This document shows, one piece after another, positions 40,523 to 54,126 of a DNA stretch of 64,000 bases. The stretch covers positions 9,358-73,357 of IMG/VR virus record IMGVR_UViG_3300045141_000130, one strand, 5' to 3'. Position numbers and translations under genes: made by a program. Within the stretch, counting starts at the first letter, position 1, and each line of letters opens with the position of its first letter. Under the pieces are notes generated by a model that was given only the letters and a program-made list of their open reading frames with translations, ran no database searches and was not told where the DNA came from. The DNA is from a virus.

Positions 40523-41008
40523 CTACGCCTCCGAACCTTTCGCCAACTCGGCGACCCGGCGGGCCTTCCCCTCGTCCAGTTCGGCCTCCACGGCAACGGC
40601 CATGTCGAGCAGCCGCACCGACTTCTCGACCTTCCCCGCCTCCGCGTACTCCTTGCCCCGCTTCCGGTAGTCGCGCACCCGCCCCGCCAGGCGACGGCGG
40701 TGCTGCAACTCCGATGCCGTGAACATCCGCTGGCGACCCCGCAGTCCGCCCTCCCGTCGTGTGGTGAGGAACTGACGGATGTGCTCGACGCGATCCGGTG
40801 TGTACAGCAGTATCTCGACGTCCTCGTAGCTGGCCCGGTGGGTGGCCCCCAGGTTGTCCTCGGGGTAGGTCTTGGCGAGGTAGGACAGCATCGACAGGGT
40901 GATGCCGAGGCTCTCGGCCACCTCATATCGCAGGAAGAAGGGGTGTTCCAGCGATCTGACCCACTGGACCATGGGGTGGTCGGCGTACGGGGACCCTAAT
41001 CTGGGCAT
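40523..41008 (-). CDS. Hypothetical HTH-like protein, first gene of the leftward arm
   Basis: AAGGAG upstream. FLRYEVAESLGITLSML HTH-like pattern. Confidence 0.6.
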   Translation of the reverse strand: MPRLGSPYADHPMVQWVRSLEHPFFLRYEVAESLGITLSMLSYLAKTYPEDNLGATHRASYEDVEILLYTPDRVEHIRQFLTTRREGGLRGRQRMFTASELQHRRRLAGRVRDYRKRGKEYAEAGKVEKSVRLLDMAVAVEAELDEGKARRVAELAKGSEA

Positions 41009-41051
41009 TCCTGAGACTCCTTGTCTCCCAACGGGTCTGGCGACCCGAACG

Positions 41052-41081
41052 TTGCATTACTGCACAAAAGGATGCTACAAT
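41052..41081 (+). promoter_or_regulatory. SigA-like promoter of the rightward accessory arm
   Basis: TTGCAT-N18-TACAAT with a TGn extended -10, at the strand switch. Confidence 0.7.
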
Positions 41082-41226
41082 AGAGATATGCGTTGCGGCG
41101 TGCCCAAAAACAGGGCCGCCGGGGCCCACGGAGCAGATCTCCGTGGGCCCTTCCCATATCGGGGCGCACACCCACAAGCCGTCCGGCTCACCCCGGGCGG
41201 CTTTCGTGTCTGGAGAGGACACTGCA

Positions 41227-41850
41227 ATGTTCAAGTTCCACCGCAGCAACGGCAAGCACGTCGCCGCCGAGCACACCTGCCCGCTGGCCGTCACCCTCCC
41301 CACCGTCGGCCGCCACGTCGACGCCCGGACCACCGCGAAGTTCATCGTGGCCGGTGCCAAGGTGCAGGCCGAGGCGATCATCGCCGAGGGCAAGGCGCAG
41401 GCCGAGTCGGTCCTCAAGGCCGACGCGGAGTTGCGCGTCAAGCTGGCCCAGATGACCGCTGACGCCAAGGCCGAGGCTGACGCCAAGGCCAAGGCGCAGC
41501 GCGACGCCCAGAGGGCGGCGGACAACGCCATCGCCGACTGGCGCTACGAGGCAGCCCGCGCCGACCGCCGCGAGCGCAAGCACCAGGTGCGTCTTGCCAA
41601 GGCGCAGAACGCCACCGCGGCGATGAGGGCCGCTGCCGACGAGAAGATCGCGGCGTTCAACGCCCAGGCCGCGAGCGCGGCAGCCGCGAACGACACGATC
41701 GACCTGGCCTTCCAGGCGAGCGAGATCCAGATGCTTGCCGAGCAGGTTGCGAAGCTCGCTGGTGACCTGGCTGCCAAGCAGGTCGAGAAGGACCTCGCCG
41801 ACCTGGCGATCCAGCACCTGATCGACCGGACGGTCCCTGCGGCCGCCTGA
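41227..41850 (+). CDS. Ala-rich coiled-coil hypothetical protein (first early gene)
   Basis: ATG after GGAGAGGA. 207 aa, starts MFKFHRSNGKHV. Confidence 0.75.
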   Translation: MFKFHRSNGKHVAAEHTCPLAVTLPTVGRHVDARTTAKFIVAGAKVQAEAIIAEGKAQAESVLKADAELRVKLAQMTADAKAEADAKAKAQRDAQRAADNAIADWRYEAARADRRERKHQVRLAKAQNATAAMRAAADEKIAAFNAQAASAAAANDTIDLAFQASEIQMLAEQVAKLAGDLAAKQVEKDLADLAIQHLIDRTVPAAA

Positions 41851-41990
41851 GACTTGGCGTGGCACGGCACGGCTGGGCTTGGCCTGGCGTGGCGTGGCCG
41901 GGCAAGCCATGGCTTGGCAAGGCATGGTTTGGCTGGGTCCGGCCTGGCAAGGCACGGCGCGGCAAGGTAAGGGTCCCTCGCAAGGGGGAC
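41851..41990 (+). repeat. GGY-NN pentamer array 1 (24 units) plus GCAA-loop hairpin; putative guide RNA
   Basis: GACTT GGCGT GGCAC GGCAC GGCTG...GGTAA GG, then GTCCCTC-GCAA-GGGGGAC. Confidence 0.92.
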
Positions 41991-42115
41991 AAGTAGTACC
42001 CGCAATACAGCAGCCCCCCAGCATCCGTGCTGGGGGGCTGCTGGCGTTTTTCGGCGTATTACCCCCAGGCCAACCGGTCTGGGGTCCCTGCGTTTCTCCT
42101 GAGAGGAGAAAGCAG

Positions 42116-42484
42116 TTGAGCGACACCAGTGGTATCCAGCCCTTCTTCCAAGGCCTGGGGTCCTACCTCGGCGACTACGTCCGCCAGGCGACCGAAGCGT
42201 CCTCCTTCCACGTCGGTGACGGGGTGCGCTACCACGGCTCGAAGGTGGCCGACCACGGCTACTGGAGAGTCCAGGCCGTCCCCGGCAATGGGACGGTCGA
42301 GATCGGGCGGCGCGGGGAGCGCCGGTACCTGGTCGTTCGGCCGCAGTCGATCGACAACCTCCGCGACGAGGTCTGCCGACACTGCGACGCTGCCGAGGTC
42401 TGGCACTACGCGATGCGCGTCGACGACATCGTCGACGGGGATCTGCCGGTGCAGGACCTCTGCTACTCCTGCGAAAACAGGTAG
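42116..42484 (+). CDS. Hypothetical protein (SH3-like plus Zn ribbon)
   Basis: TTG start after GAGGAG. FHVGDGVRY, CRHC..CYSC. Confidence 0.6.
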   Translation: MSDTSGIQPFFQGLGSYLGDYVRQATEASSFHVGDGVRYHGSKVADHGYWRVQAVPGNGTVEIGRRGERRYLVVRPQSIDNLRDEVCRHCDAAEVWHYAMRVDDIVDGDLPVQDLCYSCENR

Positions 42485-42500
42485 CAAACAGCAGCAACGC

Positions 42501-42561
42501 TTCAAGCCCCCCGGCCGCTCGGCCGGGGGGTTCCTGCGTGTCTGGAAAGGACATGGCAATG
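42501..42561 (+). repeat. 61-bp hairpin+RBS leader repeat, copy 1
   Basis: 57/61 identical to 43028-43088. Confidence 0.85.
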
Positions 42562-43017
42562 AGCAACACCAAGAAGCACCGAGGAAGGTTCGCCTTCCTC
42601 CTGGCGGGCATCATCACGGCCCTGCTGATCGCGTCGGCGTTCAGCGTCGGGTGGGTGTCCAACGCGGCGCCCGACCCGGTGCTGAGGCCGCAGCCCGCCG
42701 TCACCGTGCTGACCCACACGGTGCCCACCACCGTGCCCACCACCGTGGTCCACACCCAGGTGGAGACGCAGACCAAGACGGTGACGCGGGTCAGCGCCTA
42801 CTGCGCGGCGGCCATCGCGGATGCCGACGGCATCCAGGCCGAGTGGCTGCAGGTCGCCACCGACATGGGCAACGCCACCTCCGACATGGTCTACGGGGGG
42901 GCGAACGCCGCCAGCAACAGCGAGGTCGAGTCGGCCACCGCGCTGTTGAAGAAGTTGAACGACACCGACATCCCGCAGTACACCGCCGACAAGATCAAGT
43001 GCCAGGCGGGCGAGTAG
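42559..43017 (+). CDS. Membrane-anchored/secreted protein
   Basis: N-terminal basic stretch plus TM helix, Thr/Val-rich stalk, two Cys. Confidence 0.72.
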   Translation: MSNTKKHRGRFAFLLAGIITALLIASAFSVGWVSNAAPDPVLRPQPAVTVLTHTVPTTVPTTVVHTQVETQTKTVTRVSAYCAAAIADADGIQAEWLQVATDMGNATSDMVYGGANAASNSEVESATALLKKLNDTDIPQYTADKIKCQAGE

Positions 43018-43027
43018 CACTCGCAGT

Positions 43028-43088
43028 TTCAAGCCCCCCGGCCGACCGGCCGGGGGGTTCCTGCGTGTCTGGAAAGGACACTGCAATG
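43028..43088 (+). repeat. 61-bp hairpin+RBS leader repeat, copy 2
   Basis: TTCAAGCCCCCCGGCCG-AC-CGGCCGGGGGGTTCCTGCGTGTCTGGAAAGGACACTGCAATG. Confidence 0.85.
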
Positions 43089-43661
43089 CCCACAGAAGTT
43101 CAGCAGTTGAAGGCCGAGCTTGATGCCCTGCGTCTCCGGGTCATCCGGCTTGAAAGCACCACCCGGGGTATGCAGCGCGGCATCACGGCGCTGAAGGCGG
43201 TCGACAAGCCCGACCTGTCGGTGGTCGACTCCCCGGACGTCGAGCACATGGTCAGCCGTCTCGCCGGTGACCTGGCGAAGCGCCTGGGGCTGACCGACAT
43301 CACCCTCACCCCGGAGCAGCGGGAGGCGGAGGTCCAGTCGCGCCGCGACATCGAGCTTCGCGGGCTGCGGGTCGTCAACGAGCAGCTGCTCGCCGAGAAT
43401 GCGAAGCTCCGCGGCGACATCGAGTACCTGCGCAACGAGGCGTCCAGGCTCCGCGGGCTGAAGCTCACCGCCGAGGACGCCCTGGCCAACGATCAGCATG
43501 TGATCGAGGCGCTGCGCAAGGAACTCCGGCAGTTGACGGCCGAGACGATGCGCAGGGTCAACGCCGACAGGCTCGTCACCGAGGCCCCGGTCCTGACCGA
43601 CCCGTGGGAGGGTCTGACCGACCGGCAGCCCCGCAGCCACGGCAAGCCGGTCCGCGGCTGA
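43086..43661 (+). CDS. Coiled-coil hypothetical protein
   Basis: Start MPTEVQQLK after GGAAAGGA. Confidence 0.7.
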   Translation: MPTEVQQLKAELDALRLRVIRLESTTRGMQRGITALKAVDKPDLSVVDSPDVEHMVSRLAGDLAKRLGLTDITLTPEQREAEVQSRRDIELRGLRVVNEQLLAENAKLRGDIEYLRNEASRLRGLKLTAEDALANDQHVIEALRKELRQLTAETMRRVNADRLVTEAPVLTDPWEGLTDRQPRSHGKPVRG

Positions 43662-43867
43662 TGAACCCCTACGAGCAGGTCAGCTTCCGCCTGGCCGTCG
43701 GCGACGTCGTCCACCTGTTCCTGCCCCAGTCGAAGCTGACCGGGGTGGTGGACAGGATCGAGCTTCGCCTCGGCGGGCTCGACTGGACCCGGATCCACGT
43801 ACGGGTCGACGCGGACGGCGTCACCCGCGAATACCCCGTCGGGATGGTCTTCCCGGCGGGCTGCTAG
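43661..43867 (+). CDS. Small SH3-like hypothetical protein
   Basis: MNPYEQ..LAVGDVVHL. TGATG coupling. Confidence 0.6.
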   Translation: MNPYEQVSFRLAVGDVVHLFLPQSKLTGVVDRIELRLGGLDWTRIHVRVDADGVTREYPVGMVFPAGC

Positions 43868-43881
43868 TCCGCAAAAAGCGG

Positions 43882-43913
43882 TACAATGGAGGAGTCGCGT
43901 TGCGGCGTGCCCA
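43882..43913 (+). promoter_or_regulatory. Second early-promoter-like element
   Basis: TACAAT followed by GCGTTGCGGCGTGCCCA, the same 17-mer as at 41090-41106. Confidence 0.6.
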
Positions 43914-43999
43914 CTTTCGGGCCGCTGCGGCGCGATTTCTCGTTTCACCCCCCGGCGACCGTCGGGGGTTTCTTCGTTTCTCGGGAAAGGGAAACAGCA

Positions 44000-44116
44000 A
44001 TGAACGTCCCAGCGCACCACCTCAGGACCGGCCTGATCGTCGCCGTGGTCATGGCGATCATCACCGCGATCTGGGCGGCCGTGTTCGGCCTCGGCCTGAA
44101 GGAGAAGCAGTCGTGA
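44000..44116 (+). CDS. Small membrane protein
   Basis: 38 aa with a TM helix, after GGAAAGGG. Confidence 0.55.
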   Translation: MNVPAHHLRTGLIVAVVMAIITAIWAAVFGLGLKEKQS

Positions 44117-44313
44117 TCAGGATCTTGGTCGTCCTCTTCATCATCTGGGTCTTCGGCGATAAGGACCGCCCCGCCGAGCGCAACAACGACTGACGCATTC
44201 GGCGGGGCCCGGTTTCGACCGGGCCCCTGCCGTGGGTGCCAGTCACACCCAAACGGCCCCCCAGCACTCCCGCTGGGGGGCTTACTTCGTTCCCACGAAA
44301 GGGGAACAGCACC

Positions 44314-44643
44314 ATGAGCAACGCATTCACGCAGTACTGCCAGGCCCTCGGCAAGGGTCTGGGCCAGGGCACCACGGCGACCTGGCGCCAGACGAACACC
44401 CTGGCCGGGTTCGCCCAGGTCGTCCTCACCCCGATGGCCATGCGCCCCGCGGTGCTGGTGGGCAACCTGGCCACCAACGTGGTGATCCACTCCACCACGG
44501 CGTTCAAGGAGACGGCAGCGGTCCGCAAGGCCGCGGCGCCCGTCGCCGCCCTGCCCCAGGCGGCTGCCGCAGCCGCTGGCGCCCAGGCCCAGCCTGGGGC
44601 GATCTTCATCGTCCCGCCGGTCAAGACGGCCAGCGGGTCCTGA
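44314..44643 (+). CDS. Hypothetical protein
   Basis: Start MSNAFTQY after GAAAGGGG. Confidence 0.65.
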   Translation: MSNAFTQYCQALGKGLGQGTTATWRQTNTLAGFAQVVLTPMAMRPAVLVGNLATNVVIHSTTAFKETAAVRKAAAPVAALPQAAAAAAGAQAQPGAIFIVPPVKTASGS

Positions 44644-44709
44644 AGTACCGCCGGGGGGCCGCCTGGCCCCCCGGCACCCTTCGTTCCCACAGAAAGGGGA
44701 ACTTGCACC

Positions 44710-45039
44710 ATGTCCACTCCATCAACACCCACCACCGGCCCGGTCACGCTCATCCCGGCCGGGTCCATCGAGTGGGGCGTCATCCAGCAGAACGCCAAGG
44801 ACGTCGTGGCGTTGCGCGCCGAGGTCGCCCTCCTCAAGGAGGCCAAGGAGATCCGCGACCGCCGCATCTCCTGGCTGGAGTCCACCCTCGGCGAGAAGAT
44901 CGCCGAGGTGGTCGCCCTGCGTCGGGAGGCCGCAGTGGCCGGGCTGTCGCTCGACCGCTACCGCGGGCTGATCGACAGCCTCGCCGCACTCAGCAAGGCG
45001 CAGTCCCCGGAGACGGCCGCACCCGCGGCTGCCTCCTGA
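44710..45039 (+). CDS. Coiled-coil hypothetical protein
   Basis: GAAAGGGG RBS, 109 aa. Confidence 0.65.
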   Translation: MSTPSTPTTGPVTLIPAGSIEWGVIQQNAKDVVALRAEVALLKEAKEIRDRRISWLESTLGEKIAEVVALRREAAVAGLSLDRYRGLIDSLAALSKAQSPETAAPAAAS

Positions 45040-45107
45040 TCGACACCGTGGGGCGGGGAGCGCATCCCCGCCCCACGGCCCCAACCCACCAACTCCAAGG
45101 AGGAGTG

Positions 45108-45461
45108 ATGCGCAACCCGTTCCGCAGCAAGGCTGTCGCGTTCGACCCCGAACCGTGGCGGCCCGGTGAACTGTTCACCGAGTACCGCGCCGTCGTCAGT
45201 TCGTTCGACGACGACAAGCAGTTCCCGATCGTCTCGGTGTTGGCCGCCAACGCCGAGCAGGCCCAGCAGGCGATCACCCACGCGGTGAACGCCAAGGCGC
45301 TGGAGATGGGTGTGAGCATGGACTACCTGCAGGTCCAGATGCTGGCCTCCCCGGAGGTCGTCCGGGTCTGGAACCAGGACATCAACACCCGGTCGTGGGG
45401 CGTGTTCGCCACGCCCGCCAACCACGCCGCCATCGAGGCCCCGAAGAGGAAGGCCTCCTGA
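45108..45461 (+). CDS. Hypothetical protein
   Basis: Start MRNPFRSK after AAGGAGGAG. Confidence 0.7.
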   Translation: MRNPFRSKAVAFDPEPWRPGELFTEYRAVVSSFDDDKQFPIVSVLAANAEQAQQAITHAVNAKALEMGVSMDYLQVQMLASPEVVRVWNQDINTRSWGVFATPANHAAIEAPKRKAS

Positions 45462-45916
45462 TGACGACCCCCCGGCGGAAGCTCCCCAAGATCAACCCCG
45501 CCATGGCGATCGCCGGGGGGATCGGCATGGGGGGACTTGCCCCGGTCCGCCCCCGCCGGTCCCTGGGGCGGGTCAAGGACGCGGCGTTCCAGCCCGTGGA
45601 GCGCAAGTACGTGGACGTGTCCGACAACCCGCAGTGGCTGGCCCTGGAACCCCAGCTAGACAGGGCACGCAAGGCCGTGGAGCGCTGGGAGGACAAGGAG
45701 GTCGACGCCAACACCGCCATGCGAGAGATCGCGGGCGACCAGGATGTCGAAGGCCTCCGGTTCCGCCTGTTCCACAGCCACCCGCAAGGTCCCGTCAACC
45801 TGGAACTGCTGGCCGCCCACTTCGGCGTCAGCATCGGGTTCCTCGACAGGTTCCGGGACCCGCGGCGGCACAGCGTCACCATCCAGCGCATCGTCGGGCG
45901 GAGGCGGAAGCGATGA
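45461..45916 (+). CDS. Hypothetical protein
   Basis: TGATG coupling, GAGGAAGG RBS. Confidence 0.6.
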   Translation: MTTPRRKLPKINPAMAIAGGIGMGGLAPVRPRRSLGRVKDAAFQPVERKYVDVSDNPQWLALEPQLDRARKAVERWEDKEVDANTAMREIAGDQDVEGLRFRLFHSHPQGPVNLELLAAHFGVSIGFLDRFRDPRRHSVTIQRIVGRRRKR

Positions 45917-46134
45917 CCGAGCACGTCTACACGGTCACCATCACCCACCTCACCCTGGAGGCGAAGGAGGCCGACGCGATGATGACGACGGCCATCGAGG
46001 CGCTGGGCGGCATGCTGTACGAGTACTCCGGGGGCCTGGCGGCGTACGAGGTGACCGGCTTTCGCCACGGCGACGGCGAGGTCATCGGGTACGTCCACGA
46101 CCCGGACGAGTTGGAAGATGAGGAGGGGACATGA
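45913..46134 (+). CDS. Hypothetical protein
   Basis: Start MTEHVY, ATGA overlap. Confidence 0.6.
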   Translation: MTEHVYTVTITHLTLEAKEADAMMTTAIEALGGMLYEYSGGLAAYEVTGFRHGDGEVIGYVHDPDELEDEEGT

Positions 46135-46469
46135 ACGCCGCCCCCGCTGCCGATACCGGCGGCCTGTGCTGGGAGCAGCTGCCCAGCGACCAGGCCGCCG
46201 CGCTCGTCCTCGTCGACCTGTACCGGGCGCACCTGTCCACCAGCGAGTCCAGCCGCCGCTACCGCATCGTGGTGGCGGCGTACAACCAGTGGCTGGGCGC
46301 CGTCAAGGTGATGGGCTTCGTCTGGCACCGCAGTCCCGACGACATCCGCGATGCGGTCATCGACACCGTGATGGCCGTCGGCCGGGCCTACCACAGCGAC
46401 GACAAGGCGCAGTGGCAGGACCGGGCGATGTACGGCGTGCTGGGAAAGCTGCACCTGCACGACGACTGA
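46131..46469 (+). CDS. Hypothetical protein
   Basis: GAGGAGGGG RBS, 112 aa. Confidence 0.65.
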   Translation: MNAAPAADTGGLCWEQLPSDQAAALVLVDLYRAHLSTSESSRRYRIVVAAYNQWLGAVKVMGFVWHRSPDDIRDAVIDTVMAVGRAYHSDDKAQWQDRAMYGVLGKLHLHDD

Positions 46470-46479
46470 CGCAGTCTCT

Positions 46480-46502
46480 GGCCCACCCTTCGGGGTGGGC
46501 CA
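46480..46502 (+). terminator. Hairpin, terminator candidate
   Basis: GGCCCACCC-TTCG-GGGTGGGCC with a T-run shortly downstream. Confidence 0.5.
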
Positions 46503-46619
46503 GGGGTCTGCGATTTTTTGCGTTTCCGGGGAAAAGATGATCTTGAACCCTCCGATTGGTGTCGGAGGGTCGATTCATGCTGTCCGGAACCACCGGCAGC
46601 ACCCGAAAGGAGGGCCGCT

Positions 46620-47975
46620 GTGACAACAGCGAGTCCCGAGCGCATCGGAAATGCGCACACCGCAGTAGCGCGAGGTGCCGAGTTCGGCGACATCCTCGCG
46701 TTGCTCAACAAGCAGCAGGCCAGGAAGGTCGACATCGTCATTCCTGGCAGCAAACTGCTCGTCCGGGACGGCATGCTCGTCGTCGCCGACGACGTCGTCG
46801 ACATGAGCGACGAAGGGGTGACCCGGGTCGGCGGCGAGTATTGGCCCACCACCTGGTTCGACGCCCACGTCGCCGAACGGTTGGACATTCCTGTTGCCTA
46901 TCTGCGCCGCCTGCGCAACGGCAGGGAGATCGTCGGCACCAGGGGTCGCAGCCGCACCCTCGGCCCGCGACTGGACCTGTACGACAGCAACGTCAACGGG
47001 TTGTTCCGCGGCAACGACGACGTCCCGCCGGACCTGCGGAACTTCTACGCCCGGCTGCTCGTCCCCGACGACCAGGACACCAACGGCATCGCCTACGCGC
47101 TGATGTCCTCCAAGTACTGGAGGCTGGACAACTACGACGCGATCATGGCCACCCTGTCCGGCATCCGCAAGGCCGGGATCGACCCGCTGTCGTTGCACAT
47201 CTACGGCGACCTGTCGGAGACGAAGCTGTACCTGCACGTCCACGCGCCGCAGGTGCTCACCGCCGCACCCGAACTGCTGCGCAACTACCGCAGCCCGTTC
47301 GACATCCAGGGCGAGGCAAGCAAACGCCAGGTTCCGGCCTACACGCTGGAGCAGAGGGTGGCCATGGGCCGCCAGTGGCGGGAGACCCACCGGCTGGACG
47401 AACACATCCAGCCCGGCTCCGAACCGCTCGTCCACTCCGGTTTCCTGATCACCAACTCGGAGATCGGGCAGGGCCGCTGGTCCATCCAGAAGGAGATCGT
47501 CTTCCTGGCGTGCACCAACGGGATGACCTTGACGGCGGGCCGTTTCGAGCGGCGGCACGTCGGCAGCGACCAGGAGGAGGGCCAGGTCGAATGGTCGGCG
47601 GAAACCCGTGACGCCGAGTTGCAGTGGATCGTCTCCTCGACCGCCGACATCGTGGCCGATGCGCTCAACCCGGAATCCCTGGAGAACACCGTCACCGCCC
47701 TGGAGCAGAAGGCGGGGCGCACCGTGGACGACCCGCGACGCACCATCGCGGTCGTCGCCCAGAAGCACCTGTTCAACAAGGACGAGGAGGAGGCGATCCT
47801 CCGCCACTTCGAGTTGGGTCAGGCCTTCACCAGTGCCGGTGTGGCGCAGGCCATCTCGTCCGTCGCCCAGATGTACGAGGACCCGGACCGGGCGCACAAG
47901 CTGACCGACGCCGCCATCCCCGCGATGGAACTCGTCCACTCCCTGAGAAGTACCGGGAGTCGGGCATCCCTCTGA
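46620..47975 (+). CDS. DUF932-family protein
   Basis: GTG after AAGGAGGG. AERLDIPVAYLRRL, ALMSSKYWRLDN, GFLITNSEIGQG, FLACTNGM, ERRHVG. Confidence 0.78.
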   Translation: MTTASPERIGNAHTAVARGAEFGDILALLNKQQARKVDIVIPGSKLLVRDGMLVVADDVVDMSDEGVTRVGGEYWPTTWFDAHVAERLDIPVAYLRRLRNGREIVGTRGRSRTLGPRLDLYDSNVNGLFRGNDDVPPDLRNFYARLLVPDDQDTNGIAYALMSSKYWRLDNYDAIMATLSGIRKAGIDPLSLHIYGDLSETKLYLHVHAPQVLTAAPELLRNYRSPFDIQGEASKRQVPAYTLEQRVAMGRQWRETHRLDEHIQPGSEPLVHSGFLITNSEIGQGRWSIQKEIVFLACTNGMTLTAGRFERRHVGSDQEEGQVEWSAETRDAELQWIVSSTADIVADALNPESLENTVTALEQKAGRTVDDPRRTIAVVAQKHLFNKDEEEAILRHFELGQAFTSAGVAQAISSVAQMYEDPDRAHKLTDAAIPAMELVHSLRSTGSRASL

Positions 47976-48356
47976 GACCTGGCAAGGCCGGGAGAGGCCG
48001 GGCGAGGCATGGCTAGCTTTGGCACGCAAGGGCGAGGCTTGGCTTGGCTAGGCGTGGCAAGGCGTGGCTAGGCGGGGAATGGCAAGGCGAGGTATGGAAT
48101 GCCGAGGCGGTGCATGGCCGGGCTAGGCCAGGTTCGGCGCGGTATGGCTCGGCAAGGCATGGCGAGGCTCGGTTGGGTCGGCCATGGCGAGGCAAGGCTA
48201 GGCGAGGCGCGGTGTGGCAAGGCGGGGTTCGGCAAGGTCAGGTTCGGCGTGCTCCGGTTTGGTATGGCCAGGTCGGGCTAGGCACGGTCGGGTCCGGTTC
48301 GGCGGGCCTGGGCATGGTATGGGCTCCCCGTAAGTCCCTCATTTGGGCCGGGGAGC
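47976..48356 (+). repeat. GGY-NN pentamer array 2 (69 units) plus UAAGU-bulged hairpin; putative guide RNA
   Basis: GACCT GGCAA GGCCG...GGCAT GGTAT GG in unbroken 5-nt register 47976-48320. Hairpin 48323-48356. Confidence 0.93.
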
Positions 48357-48391
48357 AAACAACAAATCCCTTGAGAGGAAAGGATTTTCGC

Positions 48392-48802
48392 ATGACAGGA
48401 GGACCATCAGACGGGGCGTACGAAGTCCTGAACACGATGCTTCACGACATGCTTCACAGCCCGGGGGCGCAGGCCACGTTCAACATGGACACGCCGATGG
48501 CGACACTCATCGACACGTTCGATCTGGCCTTGCCGCCGGACTCCGACGAGAACTTCACCTGCGATCTGTGCGACCAGGTACACCGGGAGGGCCTGGACCG
48601 CATCGTCACCGCATTCGAGCCTGGCGAGCCACCCACCGACGGCAGCCCCGGGTACGTCAAGATGATCGCCGCCGCGGGCAAGAGCCCCACAGATCTGGCC
48701 ATGGAGAAACTCGACCGACCGAGGGTGATCCTGGTCCTGTACTCGTGCCGCAACTGCTCGCTGGAGATCCAGCAGGGGATGGACCGCCAGGAAACCTTCT
48801 GA
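48392..48802 (+). CDS. Zn-binding hypothetical protein
   Basis: Start MTGGPSD after GAGGAAAGGA. CDLC...CRNC. Confidence 0.65.
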   Translation: MTGGPSDGAYEVLNTMLHDMLHSPGAQATFNMDTPMATLIDTFDLALPPDSDENFTCDLCDQVHREGLDRIVTAFEPGEPPTDGSPGYVKMIAAAGKSPTDLAMEKLDRPRVILVLYSCRNCSLEIQQGMDRQETF

Positions 48803-49226
48803 GACGTGCTGTGGCATGGCGTGACTCGGTGGGGCGAGGCGGGGCATGCTTTGGCGCGGCGAGGCGGGGCTAGGCGTGGCCAGGCACGGCGCGGTTCGGC
48901 TCGGCGGGGCGAGGCGAGACATGGCAGGCCAAGGCAGGGCACGGTGCGGTTCGGCTGGCCATGGCTTGGTGTTGGCACGGCTGGGCTCGGCAGGGAATGG
49001 CTAGGCCTGGTTTGGTGCGGCCGGGAGTGGCTCGGCTAGGCAAGGTCGGGTTAGGCGTGGCTCGGCGTGGCAAGCCTTGGCGCGGCGCGGTGTGATCAGG
49101 TTGGGTGTGCCGCGGTTTGGCTTGGTCGGGTTAGGCGCGGCGTGGCATGACTTGGCTCGGTGTGGCTCGGCATGGAAGGCCAGGGCACGGTTTGGGTTCT
49201 CCGTAAGTCCCTTCGGGCCGGAGAAC
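48803..49226 (+). repeat. GGY-NN pentamer array 3 (78 units, one 6-nt unit) plus UAAGU-bulged hairpin; putative guide RNA
   Basis: GACGT GCTGT GGCAT...GGCAC GGTTT GG. Hairpin GTTCTCCG...CGGAGAAC at 49196-49226. Confidence 0.93.
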
Positions 49227-49280
49227 AAAGGGGGATTGGGGGGGGCGTATACAACCTCGAAACTCTTTGGGAGAACAAGA

Positions 49281-50339
49281 ATGACGAGTACGGAAACACA
49301 GATACGTGCAGTGTCTGACGCACCGTTCGCAATGACGCCGCATTTGTTGCGGATGCTGCGCGAGCGGCCTGTCGGGGTCCAGCGGATCCTGCGCAGGACC
49401 GACACCGGGGAGTTGAGGGCGTTCCTCGACCCCACCGCCGCAGACCAGGGCTTCTGGACCGCCCTCCCCGTCTGGCGTTCGGCGGAATGGCGCTACGACG
49501 ACAGCCGCTGGCTGGCCAGCACCGGCAGCCTGTCGTCGCCGGAGAACCTGGTGGACAACCTCGGCTGGTTCGACGTCCCGATCGTCTGGGCCATCACCGA
49601 GACCCCGTACTTCGCGGAGTTGCTCGCGGCCCGGTCGGACGACACGGTGCTGGTGATGGGTGACCCGCGGGACGGCGAACTGCGGTGCTACAAGGAGCGG
49701 AACTGGGACGAGTACCCCGCCCAGAGCGGCTGGCAGGCGTGGCCGACCGTCCGCGATCCCCTCAACCGGTCCTACGGCCCGGATCTCAACTGGCTGACCC
49801 ACAACTTCGGCGCCGTCTCCCTGCAGCAGGTCAAGGACGCCGGTTTCATCAAGGTGTGGGAGAAGGCCGAGGAGAACCCCATCCTCGTCGAGGTCAACCC
49901 GGAGGTGAACCGGCTGCAACTGCGCATCACCGACCTGGAGTCCACCCTGGCCACTCTGCGCACCCAGAACCAGACGCAGCAGCGGCGCCTGGAGCAGATG
50001 TCCAACGACCACGAGCGGTTCAAGGAGTTGGTGTCCTCCACCGCCACCAAGTACGCCCGGCGGCACGACTGGTGCTCCGTCGTCGACGAGGCGCTGGAGG
50101 AGATGGGACTGGAGAGGGAGCCGGTCAGCTTCAGCGGGGTCATCAGCGTCCGCATCAACTTCACCGCCAACCGCACCGACGGTGAACGTGGCACCCCGAA
50201 CGCCCGTGACGTCAACCGCTGGCTGTACGGCGAGGATGACGTGCGTGAAGCCATCGGCGAGAACCTCAGCCTCGACGAGGATTACGCCGGTGACTTCGAG
50301 ATCGACAGCTACAGCTTCGAGGTCATCTCCACCTCGTAG
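49281..50339 (+). CDS. Hypothetical protein (Trp-rich N-terminus, coiled coil)
   Basis: Start MTSTETQIR after GGGAGA. 352 aa. Confidence 0.72.
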   Translation: MTSTETQIRAVSDAPFAMTPHLLRMLRERPVGVQRILRRTDTGELRAFLDPTAADQGFWTALPVWRSAEWRYDDSRWLASTGSLSSPENLVDNLGWFDVPIVWAITETPYFAELLAARSDDTVLVMGDPRDGELRCYKERNWDEYPAQSGWQAWPTVRDPLNRSYGPDLNWLTHNFGAVSLQQVKDAGFIKVWEKAEENPILVEVNPEVNRLQLRITDLESTLATLRTQNQTQQRRLEQMSNDHERFKELVSSTATKYARRHDWCSVVDEALEEMGLEREPVSFSGVISVRINFTANRTDGERGTPNARDVNRWLYGEDDVREAIGENLSLDEDYAGDFEIDSYSFEVISTS

Positions 50340-50420
50340 TGCGCTACGCAGTAGCAGCCCCCCTGCCACCCGGCAGGGGGGCTTCCTTGTCCGCAAAAAC
50401 ACCTGAAAGGTGGTTCTGCT

Positions 50421-51041
50421 GTGCCAGACGTCGACGACGAAGACCCGTCACGACACACGTACGAGAGCCGGGAGATGGCCGAACGGGAACTGGCGGGCTG
50501 GTTCCCGCCGTCGGTCCCCGAGGAGGCCAAACCGGAACTCATGCGCATCGCCATCGTCGAACACCCCGGGCAGGAACCCCTGCGCACCCTGTGGAGCATC
50601 CACCCGGAGTTCGTCTACCTGACGAACCCCGAACTGTGGATGCTCGTCACCTGGATCACCGGTGACGAGCGTTCCCGCGGCAGCCTCCGCGGGATACCGC
50701 TGCTACTGGTCCAGCTGGCAGCGCTGCGCGATCACCATGTCGCGCTCATCGGGCAACTCAACGAACTGACATCCAACCAGGAGGCAAACACCATGACCGA
50801 ACCCATCAACGTCGACCCCAGCACCGTGATCCATCAGGGAACGATCAGCATCGCCATCGACTTCCGGGCAACCTTGGCGCCCACCGAGTTCCTGGAGGGC
50901 GACGACATCGAGGAGGCGCTGAACAAGTTCGCCGACCTGGAGGCGATCAAGAACGCCATCAAGGCCGCTCCCCGGCTCGACGGCATCTCCATCGAGAGCA
51001 TCTCGTTCGGTGCTCAGGTGGCCAGCTTTTTGACCAGCTGA
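50421..51041 (+). CDS. Hypothetical protein, with a strong internal in-frame start at 50793
   Basis: GAAAGGTGG before GTG 50421. AGGAGG before ATG 50793. Confidence 0.55.
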   Translation: MPDVDDEDPSRHTYESREMAERELAGWFPPSVPEEAKPELMRIAIVEHPGQEPLRTLWSIHPEFVYLTNPELWMLVTWITGDERSRGSLRGIPLLLVQLAALRDHHVALIGQLNELTSNQEANTMTEPINVDPSTVIHQGTISIAIDFRATLAPTEFLEGDDIEEALNKFADLEAIKNAIKAAPRLDGISIESISFGAQVASFLTS

Positions 51042-51047
51042 CCTTCT

Positions 51048-51218
51048 GACGTGGCCAGGGCTTGGCAAGCCGTGGCGGGGTCGGGTCGGCCGTGGCGTGG
51101 CTAGACAGGGCCGGGTTTGGTGTGGCTCGGAATGGTGCGGCGAGCCAGGGTTCGGCTCGGCATGGCATGGCCGGGTTCGGTGAGGTATGGGGCCCCCCAG
51201 CCTTCGGGCTGGGGGGCC
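51048..51218 (+). repeat. GGY-NN pentamer array 4 (~28 units) plus cUUCGg hairpin; putative guide RNA
   Basis: GACGTG GCCAG GGCTT GGCAA...GGTGA GGTAT GG, then GGCCCCCCAGCC-TTCG-GGCTGGGGGGCC. Confidence 0.93.
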
Positions 51219-51240
51219 ATCCTCGTCGCAGGGGGGTTGC

Positions 51241-51429
51241 GGCGAGGCTGGCTGAGGCGCGGCGCGGCGGGGCAGGGTCCGGCTTGGCCAGGCATGGCTG
51301 GGCGAGGTTGGGTGTGGGGTGGTTAGCCGAGGTCCGGCGCGGCTGGCTGGGGTTCGGCGGGGTGGGGCTTGGTCTGGCGTGCCCAGGCACGGTGAGGTAT
51401 GGGGCCCGCCACGGGGGGTGTGGCGAGCC
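51241..51429 (+). repeat. GGY-NN pentamer array 5 (32 units) plus hairpin; putative guide RNA
   Basis: GGCGA GGCTG...GGTGA GGTAT GG, then GGCCCGCCAC...GTGGCGAGCC. Confidence 0.92.
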
Positions 51430-51431
51430 AT

Positions 51432-51789
51432 GGATAGGACTGGCAAGGCTGGACCTGGCGGGGCAAGGTCGGACAGGGCAAGGCGTGGCCTGGTGCGGCT
51501 GGGTTAGGCACGGCCTGGTGCGGCTAGCTTCGGCGGGGCGTTGGCTCGGCATGGCCTGCCGTGGAAAGGTTGGCCGAGGCAAGGCGTGGCAAGGCGCGGC
51601 GAGGTGAGGCCTGGCAGGGCAGGGCGCGGCGAGGCGGGGCAGGCCACGGCGGGGCGAGGTGTGGTCAGGTTCAGGTGGGGTCTGGGTCTGGCGTGGCAGC
51701 GGCTGGGCCAGGCCCGGTTTGGCCAGGCGCGGCGTGGTATGGGCCGCCCGTAAGTCCTTAGCCGCCGGATGCGGCTAAGGCCGGGCGGC
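51432..51789 (+). repeat. GGY-NN pentamer array 6 (~61 units, four 6-nt units) plus UAAGU-bulged hairpin; putative guide RNA
   Basis: GGATA GGACT GGCAA...GGCGT GGTAT GG. Hairpin 51743-51789. Confidence 0.9.
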
Positions 51790-51814
51790 GAAACAAGTCT
51801 TCCTTCCAATCTCA

Positions 51815-51937
51815 GGCTAGGCATGCCGAGCACAGGCATGGCCTGGATAGGTGCGGCGCGCTGCGGTTGGCCGTGGCTCGGCAGGGAAAGGCTTGGCAAG
51901 GCGAGGTATGGGTCCCCAAGGAGAAGCCTTGCGGGAC
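51815..51937 (+). repeat. GGY-NN pentamer array 7 (19 units) plus hairpin; putative guide RNA
   Basis: GGCTA GGCAT...GGCGA GGTAT GG, then GTCCCCAAGG-AGAAG-CCTTGCGGGAC. Directly upstream of the RAMP gene. Confidence 0.9.
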
Positions 51938-51956
51938 AAGAACAAAGGAGCACGCC

Positions 51957-52640
51957 GTGGTTACACGGAGCCGCAGTACCGCAGTGAAGCCGGACCCGGA
52001 GCCGAACGCTCTGGACGGTGATGTGAGCGACTCGGGCAACGCCACGTACGAGGCCAACCGGCCCTTCCGGGCGGCCGTCGAGATCACCGGCGACTCGGTG
52101 ATCCTGTTCCACCGTTGGCAGTCCGACGCGGTCGACGCGAAGGCCGCTGCCGCCAAGGGGTCCCGAGCGAAGAAGACCGATGATGTTGATTCTTACGTTT
52201 GGGAGAACGAGAACGGGGTGCTGTGCCTGCCCGGCGAGTACCTGCGTTGCTCGCTCACCAACCCGCAGAACGGTGCCGCGAAGTACCTTCAGGACCCGCG
52301 GTCCCCCCGCAAGTCGGCCTTGGATTTGTTCAAGGCTGGTGTTGTCAGCCTCACCGACCTGGCCCCGATCACCAAGGCGGACGGCACACCGGCCGAGGGC
52401 TGGGACCACCTGGACCGCCGCCGCGTGGTGGTGCAGAGGTCGGGCGTCACCCGCTCCCGGCCCGCATTCGCCACCGGCTGGAAGGCGGAGATCATTTTGA
52501 TGTCTCTGCTGCCTCAATACATCAGCCCGTCATTGCTGCGGACGACGCTGTCCGACGCTGGGAAACTCGTTGGGGTGGGCGACTTCCGGCCCACCTTCGG
52601 CCGGTTCAGCGTCACGAAGTTTGAGGTCCTCCAGGACTAG
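51957..52640 (+). CDS. Stand-alone RAMP/Cas7-like RNA-binding protein (putative effector of the GGY-NN arrays)
   Basis: GTG after AAAGGAG, 227 aa. N-terminal strand AAVEITGDSVILFH. GVLCLPGEYLRCSL resembles the Cas7-group IPGSSxKG motif. Basic thumb-like DRRRVVVQRSGVTRSRP. C-terminal Gly-rich loop AGKLVGVGDFRPTFGRFSV. Confidence 0.78.
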   Translation: MVTRSRSTAVKPDPEPNALDGDVSDSGNATYEANRPFRAAVEITGDSVILFHRWQSDAVDAKAAAAKGSRAKKTDDVDSYVWENENGVLCLPGEYLRCSLTNPQNGAAKYLQDPRSPRKSALDLFKAGVVSLTDLAPITKADGTPAEGWDHLDRRRVVVQRSGVTRSRPAFATGWKAEIILMSLLPQYISPSLLRTTLSDAGKLVGVGDFRPTFGRFSVTKFEVLQD

Positions 52641-52901
52641 GCGAGGCTGGGCTGGGCATGGCGCGGCTGGGCGCGGCAAGGCCTGGCTAGGAATGGCAAG
52701 CCGGGGCGCGGCTAGGCGAGGCTGGGCGGGGTCAGGTGGGGCTAGGTTCGGCGTGGCATGGCGAGACATGGCTCGGCTGGGCAAGGCGTGCCTTGGCAAG
52801 GCGCGGCGCGGCTGGGAAAGGCAAGGTCGGGTGGGGCCTGGCGAGGTCCGGCCGGGTATGCCGAGGCTCGGTGAGGTATGGGTTTCACCCTCGGGTGAGA
52901 C
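52635..52901 (+). repeat. GGY-NN pentamer array 8 (49 units) plus hairpin; putative guide RNA
   Basis: GACTA GGCGA (overlapping the TAG stop)...GGTGA GGTAT GG, then GTTTCACC-CTCG-GGTGAGAC. Confidence 0.93.
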
Positions 52902-52918
52902 GAGAAGTATTGGCCTGC

Positions 52919-52947
52919 TTGCGTTCTCGGTTTTGACCCCATACAAT
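52919..52947 (+). promoter_or_regulatory. SigA-like promoter
   Basis: TTGCGT-N17-TACAAT. Confidence 0.65.
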
Positions 52948-53075
52948 GGGGACATGCCTTCCGAACAACTGGGCGCCGCTGAGGCGAACACCAGCGGGAG
53001 GCGAAGCACTGGATGTCCGTTGCGGGGTGCAAGTCCCCGGTTCCTGCAAAGAGCCACGGAGTCCGGTTCGACCTA

Positions 53076-53111
53076 GAGGCCCCGCCTGATTCGTCAGGCG
53101 GGGCCTCTTTC
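53076..53111 (+). terminator. Intrinsic terminator-like hairpin
   Basis: GAGGCCCCGCCTGA-TTCG-TCAGGCGGGGCCTC followed by TTT. Confidence 0.65.
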
Positions 53112-53170
53112 GTTGTGTGCCCGGCAGCATTCCCGCTGCCGGGCTTTCGCATTTCTCCAAGGAGGAGAGC

Positions 53171-53479
53171 ATGACAACAGCGGTTGTGAAGAAGGCAAAA
53201 GCGGGGACCGTGCTCGTCACGGCCGAGATGTACGCCGTGATCCGCGAGACGAAGAAGGGCCACGTCAAGGTGGACCTGATGCTCCGCCTGCCGAAGCCGA
53301 GCCAGCAGGGACTGGTACGGCTGTGCCGCCGCACCTTCTACGCCTACGGGCACACCGGCTACCGGTCCCAGGACGCACAGCGCTGGGCTGAGGCGGAGGC
53401 CTGGGCCAACGCCCGGCTGTACGCGCTGAGCACCGGCCCACGCCGCCAGTTCCTGTATCTCACCGGGGCGCAGAACTGA
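53171..53479 (+). CDS. Hypothetical basic protein
   Basis: Start MTTAVVKK after AAGGAGGAG. Confidence 0.65.
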   Translation: MTTAVVKKAKAGTVLVTAEMYAVIRETKKGHVKVDLMLRLPKPSQQGLVRLCRRTFYAYGHTGYRSQDAQRWAEAEAWANARLYALSTGPRRQFLYLTGAQN

Positions 53480-53874
53480 TGGCCGGGATGATCACCAGGC
53501 TGGACGGGACGCCGCTGGACGAGTCGGACTCGGCCATGGTCGCTGCGTGGTTGGGCAAACGGGCGGTGCAGCGTGGCCCCAGGGTGGGGGACCATGTCGA
53601 GTTCGCCGATGGCAAGACCCTGGTCATCGCCACCCGCTGGGGCAGCGGCATCCAGGTCACCACGGGGGGGACGTTCTATCTGCGAGACAACGGCAGGCTC
53701 GTCTGCGAGAGCCCGTCGTTCCAGTCCGTCAACGACCAGGGCCTCACCCGGTCGGCCAGGACGGTGTACACGAAGGTCTGGTTCTACCATCGCGGCGAGC
53801 CTGTCGCGGGCGGTGGGATCGAGATCAATGTTCCTTCACGGTGCTACCGCTCTCCGACGCGGTCGCCGAAATAA
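53479..53874 (+). CDS. Hypothetical protein
   Basis: TGATG coupling. GPRVGDHVEFADG..IQVT.GGTFYL pattern. Confidence 0.65.
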   Translation: MAGMITRLDGTPLDESDSAMVAAWLGKRAVQRGPRVGDHVEFADGKTLVIATRWGSGIQVTTGGTFYLRDNGRLVCESPSFQSVNDQGLTRSARTVYTKVWFYHRGEPVAGGGIEINVPSRCYRSPTRSPK

Positions 53875-53892
53875 TCCAACAGGAGAAGTTGA

Positions 53893-54126
53893 ATGACAGA
53901 TGTTGAACCGCCGCTCGCACAGGTGATCCGGTTGGTGTTGGGGGAGGCGGCGCACGAGTCGACCCCGGAGGCCAACCCCAGGGATCGGATGTTGGTGGCG
54001 GCGACCCTGCTGGTCGTCGCCATAGTCGTGGCGTGGCCGAAGGACCGTCCGGCACCGGCACCGGTGGCAGCGGCCTACCGGTTCGGGCAGGACGTGTGGA
54101 CGCGCCGCGGTTGGTGGATGAACTGA
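53893..54126 (+). CDS. Small membrane protein
   Basis: AGGAGA RBS, one TM helix. Confidence 0.55.
   Translation: MTDVEPPLAQVIRLVLGEAAHESTPEANPRDRMLVAATLLVVAIVVAWPKDRPAPAPVAAAYRFGQDVWTRRGWWMN

What the first reader, a model, noticed from the sequence alone, without database searches (positions are those of the whole stretch)
48323..51789. Conserved, covarying 3' RNA element (stem-UAAGU-stem-C-stem) closing arrays 2, 3 and 6
Seen: three copies. GCTCCCCG-TAAGT-CCC..GGG-C-CGGGGAGC at 48323-48356. GTTCTCCG-TAAGT-CCC..GGG-C-CGGAGAAC at 49196-49226. GCCGCCCG-TAAGT-CCTTAGCCGC..GCGGCTAAGG-C-CGGGCGGC at 51743-51789. Stem sequences differ with compensatory changes while CCG-TAAGT-CC and GG-C-CGG are invariant. 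The other arrays end in simple hairpins (GCAA, UUCG and other loops), and none has a U-tract. Inference: a processing, protection or loading handle for guide RNAs cut from a polycistronic transcript.
Basis: partly seen in the sequence, partly recalled or inferred. Interest (0 to 1): 0.7.

Follow-up and report, generated by a model that had tools for sequence, protein, structure and literature searches.

The report
Hairpin tails closing VIPR guide arrays
Three matching RNA hairpins sit at the ends of long five-letter repeat arrays that a soil phage most likely uses as guide RNAs for the recently described CRISPR-like VIPR system; they look like a local variant of the already known guide-RNA 'tail', not a new kind of element.

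Summary
Three hairpins lie at 48323-48356, 49196-49226 and 51743-51789. They share an invariant core, CCG-UAAGU-CC / GG-C-CGG, and their stems differ by compensatory changes.

The "arrays" are NNGGY pentamer tracts: 354 five-base units in 8 intergenic arrays, all on the + strand. These are the vrRNA arrays of VIPR systems described in 2026 preprints. The effector gene lies among them. Window 51957-52640 matches the solved SUSP1 Vipr protein (E 4.2e-7, or 4.4e-12 with a profile) and folds like Cas7/Csm3.

All 8 arrays end the same way: GGU, then WWGG (AUGG in 6 of 8), then a GC-rich hairpin whose first G takes the pyrimidine slot of the last unit. My reading of the SUSP1 locus gives the same junction in front of its tails. 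The hairpins are therefore vrRNA 3' tails, not terminators. None has a U-tract, and real U-tract terminators stand at the operon ends.

The UAAGU loop occurs in only 3 of the 8 tails, those of the three longest arrays. I found it in no relative, virus or genome collection searched. What binds it is unknown, and no RNA data exist.

Verdict: a lineage-specific variant of a known element, of moderate interest.

The parts
48323..48356 (+). UAAGU-type 3' tail hairpin of array A2: 8-bp outer stem, UAAGU/C internal loop, 3-bp inner stem, 6-nt loop
49196..49226 (+). UAAGU-type 3' tail hairpin of array A3 (inner stem CCC/GGG with a small UUC(G) loop)
51743..51789 (+). UAAGU-type 3' tail hairpin of array A6 (inner stem lengthened to 10 bp)
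47979..48322 (+). vrRNA array A2: 68 NNGGY units plus the terminal AUGG. An internal end-like signature, GAGGT-ATGGA, lies at 48089-48098
48806..49195 (+). vrRNA array A3: 77 units plus the terminal UUGG
51430..51742 (+). vrRNA array A6: 61 units plus the terminal AUGG. It starts directly after the A5 hairpin
41854..41990 (+). Array A1 (23 units plus AAGG) and its simple GCAA-loop hairpin at 41973-41990. A canonical U-tract terminator follows at 42008-42053
51052..51218 (+). Array A4 (27 units) and its 12-bp UUCG hairpin at 51191-51218
51239..51429 (+). Array A5 (32 units) and its hairpin at 51403-51429, which has a C/A mismatch
51813..51937 (+). Array A7 (19 units) and its hairpin at 51912-51937, which has a bulged C on the 3' side. 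It lies directly upstream of vipr
51957..52640 (+). vipr gene: a 227-aa RAMP protein homologous to SUSP1 Vipr
52648..52901 (+). Array A8 (46 units) and its simple hairpin at 52882-52901
53075..53118 (+). Canonical hairpin plus T-run terminator, probably the end of the VIPR operon
46620..51041 (+). Four protein genes interleaved with the arrays: 46620-47975 (451 aa, phrog_1362), 48392-48802 (136 aa), 49281-50339 (352 aa) and 50421-51041 (206 aa). They are candidate accessory genes with no assignable function

Best explanation
The three hairpins are 3' tails of vrRNA arrays in a phage-encoded VIPR system.

Proposed mechanism:
- The operon (about 46.6-53.1 kb of the window) is transcribed on the + strand. 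It carries seven GGY/NN pentamer arrays (A2-A8), four genes of unknown function and vipr. An eighth array, A1, lies separately at 41.9 kb.
- Vipr protomers bind one pentamer each and form a filament. This is published for SUSP1.
- Each array stops at a fixed signature: GGU, then WWGG, then a hairpin. The first G of the hairpin occupies the position where the next protomer would need a pyrimidine.
- So the helix ends the filament at a defined register. It also gives the RNA a structured 3' end that resists exonucleases. This step is inferred.
- An A-rich single-stranded linker after most hairpins is the likely place of endonucleolytic release. This step is inferred.

The UAAGU/C internal loop, with its flanking CCG/CGG and CC/GG pairs, is an extra sequence-specific feature on the three longest arrays. 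Most likely it is a contact site for a protein, either Vipr itself or an accessory factor. This is inferred, and the partner is unknown.
For: The system:
- Pentamer arrays: 354 five-base units, with G at position 3 in 99%, G at position 4 in 88% and C or T at position 5 in 94%. There are almost no indels and all arrays are on the + strand.
- Literature: vrRNA is a tract of YNNGG repeats plus a structured 3' tail. One Vipr protomer binds per repeat, the Y pocket excludes purines, and the 3' pseudoknot caps the RNA. A consensus tail makes an RNA competent for complex formation.
- Vipr gene: E 4.2e-7 to PDB 36pp_D 'SUSP1 Vipr protein'. The alignment keeps the counterparts of R138, D177 and R179, and puts F in place of W178. 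The profile E-value is 4.4e-12. The model has pLDDT 83.8, and its best Foldseek hits are Csm3/Cas7 RAMPs. tblastn also finds phiSUSP1.

The junction:
- In 8 of 8 arrays the penultimate unit ends in GGT, against 25% T at that position overall.
- In 8 of 8 the last unit is WWGG.
- In 8 of 8 the hairpin starts with G at the next base.
- GGTWWGGG occurs 10 times in the window, and 8 of these are the array ends.
- As I read the SUSP1 locus, 3 of its 4 repeat tracts end in GGT-ATGG-R before a helix.

Not terminators: no T run follows any tail, and canonical terminators lie at 42008, 46495 and 53075.

Structure is under selection:
- Five of the 11 pairs change on both sides among the three copies.
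- In a related strain (run X3) the A5 hairpin is replaced by a variant that still forms a hairpin, with compensatory changes by my reading.

The core is under extra constraint: all 5 variable pairs lie outside the 16-base core, which shows no change.
Against: - No RNA evidence exists: no ends, no processing and no Vipr binding for this phage.
- The UAAGU motif is in only 3 of 8 tails.
- It is absent from the 84 Vipr-relative loci and 119 pentamer-array loci examined, bar 3 metagenome loci (L317-L319) left out of the motif-near-array-end count.
- It is also absent from the IMG/VR and genome collections at the level of the exact pattern.
- So conservation rests on three paralogues in one genome. 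The invariance of the core could be shared descent rather than selection, and the 'core' was defined after seeing the data.
- The published tail is called invariable and is a pseudoknot. Here there are at least five different hairpins and no pseudoknot.
- The tracts have 19-77 units, against 9-16 published. How, or whether, they are cut into guides is unknown.
- No natural target was found.
- One related strain (X4) shows a 1-base insertion inside the A3 loop region, but at low depth of 4.4.
Confidence: 0.7

Rival explanations
1. The hairpins are only processing sites for a host endoribonuclease or barriers to exonucleases. They separate the arrays from the neighbouring mRNAs, Vipr does not recognise them, and they play no part in filament assembly.
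For: - The hairpin sequences are heterogeneous, as expected if any stable stem will do.
- A-rich linkers follow most of them.
- Relatives use quite different ends: hairpins with U-tracts, T-rich tails, and a tRNA-like element.
Against: - The register is fixed: 8 of 8 hairpins start exactly at position 5 of the last unit.
- The GGU-AUGG-R junction is shared with the SUSP1 locus. Both points tie the hairpin to the repeat frame rather than to a free-standing RNase site.
- The invariant UAAGU core argues for specific recognition in 3 tails.
- This rival is not exclusive of the best explanation.
Confidence: 0.15
2. They are factor-independent transcription terminators or attenuators of the U-tract-less kind reported in high-GC bacteria. 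They would tune expression of the downstream genes.
For: They are GC-rich hairpins at the end of non-coding tracts, just upstream of genes for A2, A3 and A7.
Against: - None has a T run.
- The same region uses canonical hairpin-plus-T-run terminators at 42008, 46495 and 53075. The A1 tail is itself followed 17 bases later by such a terminator.
- Arrays A4-A7 follow each other with 0-25 bases between them and no promoter-like site. Termination at each hairpin would silence the downstream arrays and vipr.
Confidence: 0.07
3. The three copies are relics of a recent duplication. The shared core reflects common descent, and the UAAGU loop has no function beyond being part of a stable stem.
For: There are only three copies, all in one genome, with no homologue elsewhere.
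Against: - The flanks and apical parts have diverged completely.
- Four of the 8 outer-stem pairs have changed on both sides, while 16 core bases show no change.
- In a related strain (X3) the A2 tail is unchanged, although the flanking linker has indels.
Confidence: 0.07
4. The element is a small self-cleaving ribozyme, by analogy with the hammerhead-interspersed vrRNA arrays reported for some VIPR types.
For: Ribozyme-separated vrRNA arrays are reported in the literature.
Against: - No Rfam family matches at gathering score in the window.
- None matches at E up to 5 across 47900-52950 near any tail.
- The element is a single 31-47 nt hairpin with 11-18 pairs and no multi-helix junction.
Confidence: 0.01

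Closest known systems
vrRNA 3' tail of the Escherichia phage SUSP1 VIPR system (bioRxiv 10.64898/2026.04.26.720920 and 10.64898/2026.04.26.720927)
   Same: - It is a structured element directly 3' of a GGY/NN repeat tract next to a vipr gene.
- The junction is the same, GGU-AUGG-R, with a helix starting at the next base.
- By my reading of the SUSP1 locus, one phage there also carries more than one tail form.
   Different: - SUSP1 tails are about 40 nt and include a pseudoknot. Here they are plain hairpins, three of them with an asymmetric UAAGU/C internal loop.
- My covariance model gives only non-significant scores (E 3-9) at the SUSP1 tails.
- The tracts here have 19-77 units, not 9-16.
- The tails here are not invariant within the system.
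Repeat-derived hairpin handle of crRNAs in class 1 CRISPR systems (recalled knowledge, not tested here)
   Same: A stable hairpin at one end of the guide bounds a filament of RAMP (Cas7-like) subunits. The Vipr model's best structural matches are Csm3/Cas7.
   Different: There is no spacer-repeat organisation, no Cas6-like gene identified and no CRISPR array. The guide information lies in the NN dinucleotides of the pentamers.
Intrinsic (Rho-independent) terminator hairpins
   Same: A GC-rich hairpin at the end of a non-coding unit.
   Different: No T run follows. Real terminators of the canonical kind are present separately in the same locus.
Bulged operator hairpins bound by phage proteins, such as the MS2 or PP7 coat-protein sites (recalled knowledge, an analogy only)
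   Same: A short hairpin in which a bulge or internal loop and the adjoining pairs are invariant, while the rest of the stem is free to covary.
   Different: There is no sequence similarity and no binding protein identified here.

Membership tests
VIPR system (Vipr protein plus vrRNA) | A Vipr (minimal RAMP) gene in the locus | tested here: met
   Window 51957-52640 against PDB 36pp_D 'SUSP1 Vipr protein': E 4.2e-7, or 4.4e-12 with a 29-sequence profile. The AF2 model has pLDDT 83.8. Foldseek's top hits are Csm3/Cas7 chains, E 4e-5 to 1e-3.
VIPR system (Vipr protein plus vrRNA) | Residues that hold the GGY bases (SUSP1 R138, D177, W178, R179) | tested here: met
   The phmmer alignment pairs them with R168, D209, F210 and R211. 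W is replaced by F, another aromatic. R168 and R211 are invariant and D209 nearly so in 29 homologues. H17 lies outside the aligned stretch.
VIPR system (Vipr protein plus vrRNA) | Tandem pentamers with conserved GGY and variable NN | tested here: met
   354 units, with G 99%, G 88% and Y 94% at positions 3-5. All 16 dinucleotides occur at the NN positions.
VIPR system (Vipr protein plus vrRNA) | 9-16 repeats per vrRNA | tested here: inconclusive
   The tracts between tails have 19-77 units. The preprint mentions 'staggered arrays with overlapping vrRNAs', but I could not see that figure. Without RNA data the length of the mature guides is unknown.
VIPR system (Vipr protein plus vrRNA) | A structured 3' tail directly after the repeat tract | tested here: met
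   8 of 8 arrays end in GGU-WWGG followed by a hairpin. The same junction is seen in the SUSP1 locus.
SUSP1-type tail | An invariable sequence within the system, containing a pseudoknot | tested here: not met
   The tails here comprise at least five different simple hairpins plus the UAAGU class. No conserved pairing of the loop or the UAAGU bases with downstream sequence is visible in the three copies (direct reading). The covariance model does not match the SUSP1 tails significantly.
VIPR system (Vipr protein plus vrRNA) | vrRNA is expressed and bound by Vipr, and targets obey the one-base-skip rule | not testable with these tools
   No RNA run is listed. The local target search over 5.6 Mb gave 4 hits at 20 or more of 24 bases, against 5.3 per shuffled control.
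Intrinsic terminator | A hairpin followed by a T/U run | tested here: not met
   None of the 8 tails is among the 10 terminator-like sites found in 41000-54000. The bases after the hairpins are A-rich or mixed.
Known ribozymes and other Rfam families | A match to a curated covariance model | tested here: not met
   0 matches at gathering score in the window. No match at E up to 5 touches a tail.
Kink-turn, and the 11-nt GNRA tetraloop receptor (motifs recalled from memory) | Kink-turn: a 3-nt bulge followed by tandem G-A pairs. Receptor: CCUAAG opposite UAUGG across one helix | tested here: not met
   By direct reading, no G-A tandem follows the bulge. UAUGG and UAAG are both present, but in the wrong strand order and with an extra CG. 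The covarying outer stem uses those bases otherwise.

The most novel reading that the evidence does not exclude
The five-base UAAGU bulge, held between two helices, is a pseudo-repeat unit or docking site. It would anchor a terminal Vipr protomer or a separate accessory protein, and it would mark a second biogenesis route reserved for very long (60-80 unit) multi-guide arrays. One phage would then run two classes of vrRNA, told apart by their tails.
Probability: 0.15. Interest if true: 0.6.

Novelty: new variant of a known kind. Interest (0 to 1): 0.4.

Why it matters
VIPR was described only in 2026, from enterobacterial and Pseudomonas phages. There the guide tail is a pseudoknot, and its role in loading and capping the Vipr filament is just emerging.

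This high-GC soil phage shows three things:
- The junction GGU-AUGG-purine-plus-helix is shared across very distant Vipr proteins.
- The rest of the tail is free to vary, even within one genome.
- Tracts can be five times longer than the characterised guides.

That narrows what the tail must do. The likely requirement is a helix placed in the pyrimidine slot of the last unit. It also gives a natural set of eight tail variants on which to test it. If the UAAGU loop binds a specific factor, it would point to an unknown step of vrRNA biogenesis for long arrays. It would also be useful for engineering multi-guide VIPR transcripts.

Tried and rejected
Ideas held before the literature search:
- A TRAP-like protein sponge.
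- G-quadruplex or R-loop tracts.
- Primase or Chi sites.

All were superseded once the arrays were recognised as vrRNA (onwards).

Known RNA and DNA families:
- Rfam at gathering score: 0 matches.
- Rfam by E-value over 47900-52950 and 52860-53130: nothing relevant.
- tRNA scan of the window: 0 genes.
- Megablast of 46000-53500 against phage records: no match.

Searches for the hairpin elsewhere:
- Exact-pattern scans of IMG/VR gave 113 and 5 stretches, and genome contigs gave 17. None extended the outer stem by more than 3 pairs or had more than a trace of pentamer signal upstream, against 5 pairs and 16-23 for the window's own copies. I read them as chance.
- Covariance model R1 over 200 loci: best E 0.18 (L205, inside what reads as coding sequence, with no + strand array called in that locus) and 2.7 (L261, a GGUAUGG followed by a GUAA-loop hairpin). 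Neither is the same element.
- Relatives found through the 451-aa neighbouring protein: none.

Other dead ends:
- Target prediction by the published one-base-skip rule, against the phage's own genome plus all fetched loci, gave no excess over shuffles.
- A conserved pseudoknot between the loop or the UAAGU bases and downstream sequence: possible pairings exist for A2 and A3 but not A6, so rejected.
- Kink-turn, the tetraloop receptor and ribozymes were rejected (see the membership rows).
- Single-sequence AF2 of Vipr was uninformative, with pLDDT 34.
- The neighbouring proteins could not be named: Pfam, NCBIfam and PDB gave nothing usable, and the Atlas gave only a DUF932 lead on 16% of one cluster.
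- No RNA holder is listed for this stretch.

Not available:
The contigs of the closest Vipr homologues (about 70% identity) could therefore not be read.
- Supplements are closed. Figures S9, S17 and S18 and the data files of the discovery preprint could show whether this tail class or such long tracts are already catalogued. I saw only their legends.

Full report
**What is in the sequence**

The window is part of a 73,357-base IMG/VR virus record with direct terminal repeats. It is 68% G+C and carries a tape-measure gene on the minus strand.

The 10-mer CCGTAAGTCC occurs exactly three times. The shuffled mean is 0.07, and 0 of 100 shuffles reach 3. With one mismatch allowed the count is no longer above chance: 4 against 3.25. 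There is no further copy in the whole virus record.

On the alignment of the three copies, all 11 proposed base pairs are standard pairs in all 33 cells. Five pairs change on both sides. One of 500 column shuffles does as well, and sliding the partner by 1-3 columns drops pairing to 36-61%. All variable pairs lie outside the 16 bases CCG-UAAGU-CC / GG-C-CGG, which do not vary. The apical part ranges from a 3-bp stem with a small loop to a 10-bp stem.

The caveat is that it rests on three paralogous copies in one genome.

**What the arrays are**

Each hairpin closes a tract of five-base units NNGGY. I parsed 354 five-base units in eight intergenic tracts (A1-A8), all on the + strand. Position 3 is G in 99%, position 4 is G in 88% and position 5 is C or T in 94%. 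The first two positions are variable, and there are almost no indels. The feature is therefore widespread.

A literature search identified it. Preprints of 2026 describe VIPR systems, in which a small RAMP protein, Vipr, uses vrRNAs made of alternating GGY/NN motifs followed by a structured 3' tail. The NN dinucleotides read DNA with a one-base skip (10.64898/2026.04.26.720920; I read Results, Discussion, the type-classification method and passages found by term). The companion structure paper reports three things:
- one Vipr protomer binds per repeat;
- the pyrimidine sits in a pocket that excludes purines;
- a 3' pseudoknot caps the RNA, and subunits resolve from the 3' end towards the 5' end.

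For that paper (10.64898/2026.04.26.720927) I read one section and passages. A third preprint treats a consensus tail as what makes an RNA competent for Vipr complex formation (10.64898/2026.10.15.759431, passages only). A fourth recovers 99 period-5 clusters (10.64898/2026.10.21.760802, passages only).

**The effector gene is present**

Window 51957-52640 (227 aa, phrog_4652) matches the PDB chain named 'SUSP1 Vipr protein' at E 4.2e-7. The match includes the C-terminal G-loop motif and the counterparts of R138, D177 and R179, with F in place of W178.

A profile of 29 homologues raises this to E 4.4e-12. The alignment-based model (pLDDT 83.8) has Csm3/Cas7 chains as its best structural matches. 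tblastn finds phiSUSP1 and its kin at the same gene. The protein family is large: 4,854 proteins at E up to 0.001.

**What the hairpins are**

All eight tracts end in the same way:
- The penultimate unit ends in GGT in 8 of 8, against 25% T overall.
- The last unit is WWGG: AUGG six times, UUGG once and AAGG once.
- A GC-rich hairpin begins with G at the very next base in 8 of 8.

GGTWWGGG occurs ten times in the window, and eight of these are the array ends.

I read the SUSP1 locus itself. It has one repeat tract upstream and three downstream of its vipr gene, as the preprint says. Three of the four tracts end in GGT-ATGG-R followed by a helix. Several Vipr-clade relatives also end in GGY-ATGG plus a hairpin, and phage DSL-LC04 ends in GGT-AAGG plus a hairpin.

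The hairpins thus occupy the position of the published vrRNA tail. Because the pocket for the fifth base excludes purines, a base-paired G in that slot is a plausible stop for the filament. That last step is my inference.

**They are not terminators**

None of the hairpins is followed by a T run. The scan finds canonical hairpin-plus-T-run terminators at 42008 (17 bases after the A1 tail), 46495 and 53075, and no promoter-like site in 41000-54000. Arrays A4 to A7 follow one another with 0-25 bases between them.

The simplest reading is one transcript from about 46.6 to 53.1 kb. It would carry four genes of unknown function, vipr and seven arrays, with A1 in a separate unit. The RNAs would be released afterwards. 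The 10 bases after the hairpins are A-rich in a 68% G+C genome, for example 8 of 10 A after A2 and 7 of 10 after A7. That would suit endonucleolytic cutting followed by trimming back to the stem. This is inference only.

**What is special about the UAAGU class**

It closes the three longest tracts: 68, 77 and 61 units, against 46, 32, 27, 23 and 19. The chance of that ordering is 1 in 56.

Its core is invariant while the stems covary and the apex is free. That pattern is typical of a site read by a protein. RNAfold draws it as a UAA bulge, a G-C pair and a U bulge.

I could not find it anywhere else:
- not in 4 viral and 80 metagenomic loci that encode Vipr relatives of 49-71% identity;
- not in 119 array-bearing viral loci;
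- not with a covariance model, whose best hits were E 0.18 and 2.7 and are not the same element;
- not as an exact pattern in IMG/VR or in 185,579 species genomes.

Tails in the clade are very diverse: hairpins with U-tracts, T-rich tails, and in L241 a tRNA-like element that ARAGORN calls at the array end.

**Natural variants**

Contigs from soil runs give some information on natural variation:
- In X3 the A2 tail is unchanged, while the linker after it has indels.
- In X3 the A5 hairpin is replaced by a different sequence that still forms a hairpin, with compensatory changes by my reading.
- In X4 one C is inserted after 49208 in the A3 loop region, at a depth of only 4.4.

**What remains open**

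- There is no RNA evidence.
- The partner of the loop is unknown.
- The four interleaved proteins have no assignable function.
- No target was found in the small local set.
- I could not read the contigs of the closest Vipr homologues or the preprints' supplements.

**Verdict**

It is a lineage-specific variant of the known vrRNA 3' tail. The general handle of this system is GGU-AUGG plus a helix. The UAAGU loop is an unexplained addition on three of the eight tails.

Noticed in passing
window 41854-41972, 47979-48322, 48806-49195, 51052-51190, 51239-51402, 51430-51742, 51813-51911, 52648-52881: The repeat tracts have 19-77 units between tails, far more than the 9-16 repeats given for characterised vrRNAs. 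Other loci reach 110-140 units (L318, L243, L123). Whether they are cut into several guides is unknown.
   Followed up: partly
window 48089-48098: Inside array A2 lies an end-like signature, GAGGT-ATGGA, with no hairpin after it. The 22 units before it contain no GGT unit, while the 45 after it contain many. A2 may be two fused arrays.
   Followed up: no
window 41847-41853, 47972-47978, 48799-48805: Arrays A1, A2 and A3 each begin directly after CTGAGAC, which overlaps the stop codon of the upstream gene. A4 begins after a related CCTTCTGAC. The 7-mer is not enriched in the window overall (7 found, 10 expected), but 3 of its 4 + strand sites are array starts. It may be a 5' boundary signal.
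   Followed up: partly
L241 913-986; L239 about 7755-7800: In two Vipr relatives of 71% and 65% identity, the array runs into a tRNA-like element with a GGTTCGACTCC T-arm. ARAGORN calls it tRNA-Ser(gga) in L241 and calls nothing in L239. This suggests 3' end formation by tRNA-processing enzymes in those phages.
   Followed up: partly
window 52902-53075: About 170 non-coding bases lie between the A8 tail and the operon terminator. The fold is not better than shuffles (z -0.5), and the only Rfam matches sit at the terminator stem.
   Followed up: partly
window 48158-49054, 48228-52650, 51640-51880 and others: Contigs from related soil strains join one array to another, skipping 239-4421 bases or going back. 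This may be recombination between arrays, or assembly artefacts at the repeats.
   Followed up: no
L341 (phage SUSP1) 1985-2100 and 3250-3640: By my reading the four SUSP1 tails fall into two sequence forms, tracts 1 and 4 against tracts 2 and 3, although the preprint calls the tail invariable.
   Followed up: no
L342 (Phage DSL-LC04) 3971-4588: A Vipr homologue of 54% identity is annotated in GenBank as a 'helix-turn-helix transcriptional regulator'. GGY/NN arrays lie just upstream of it, at 3690-3930.
   Followed up: partly
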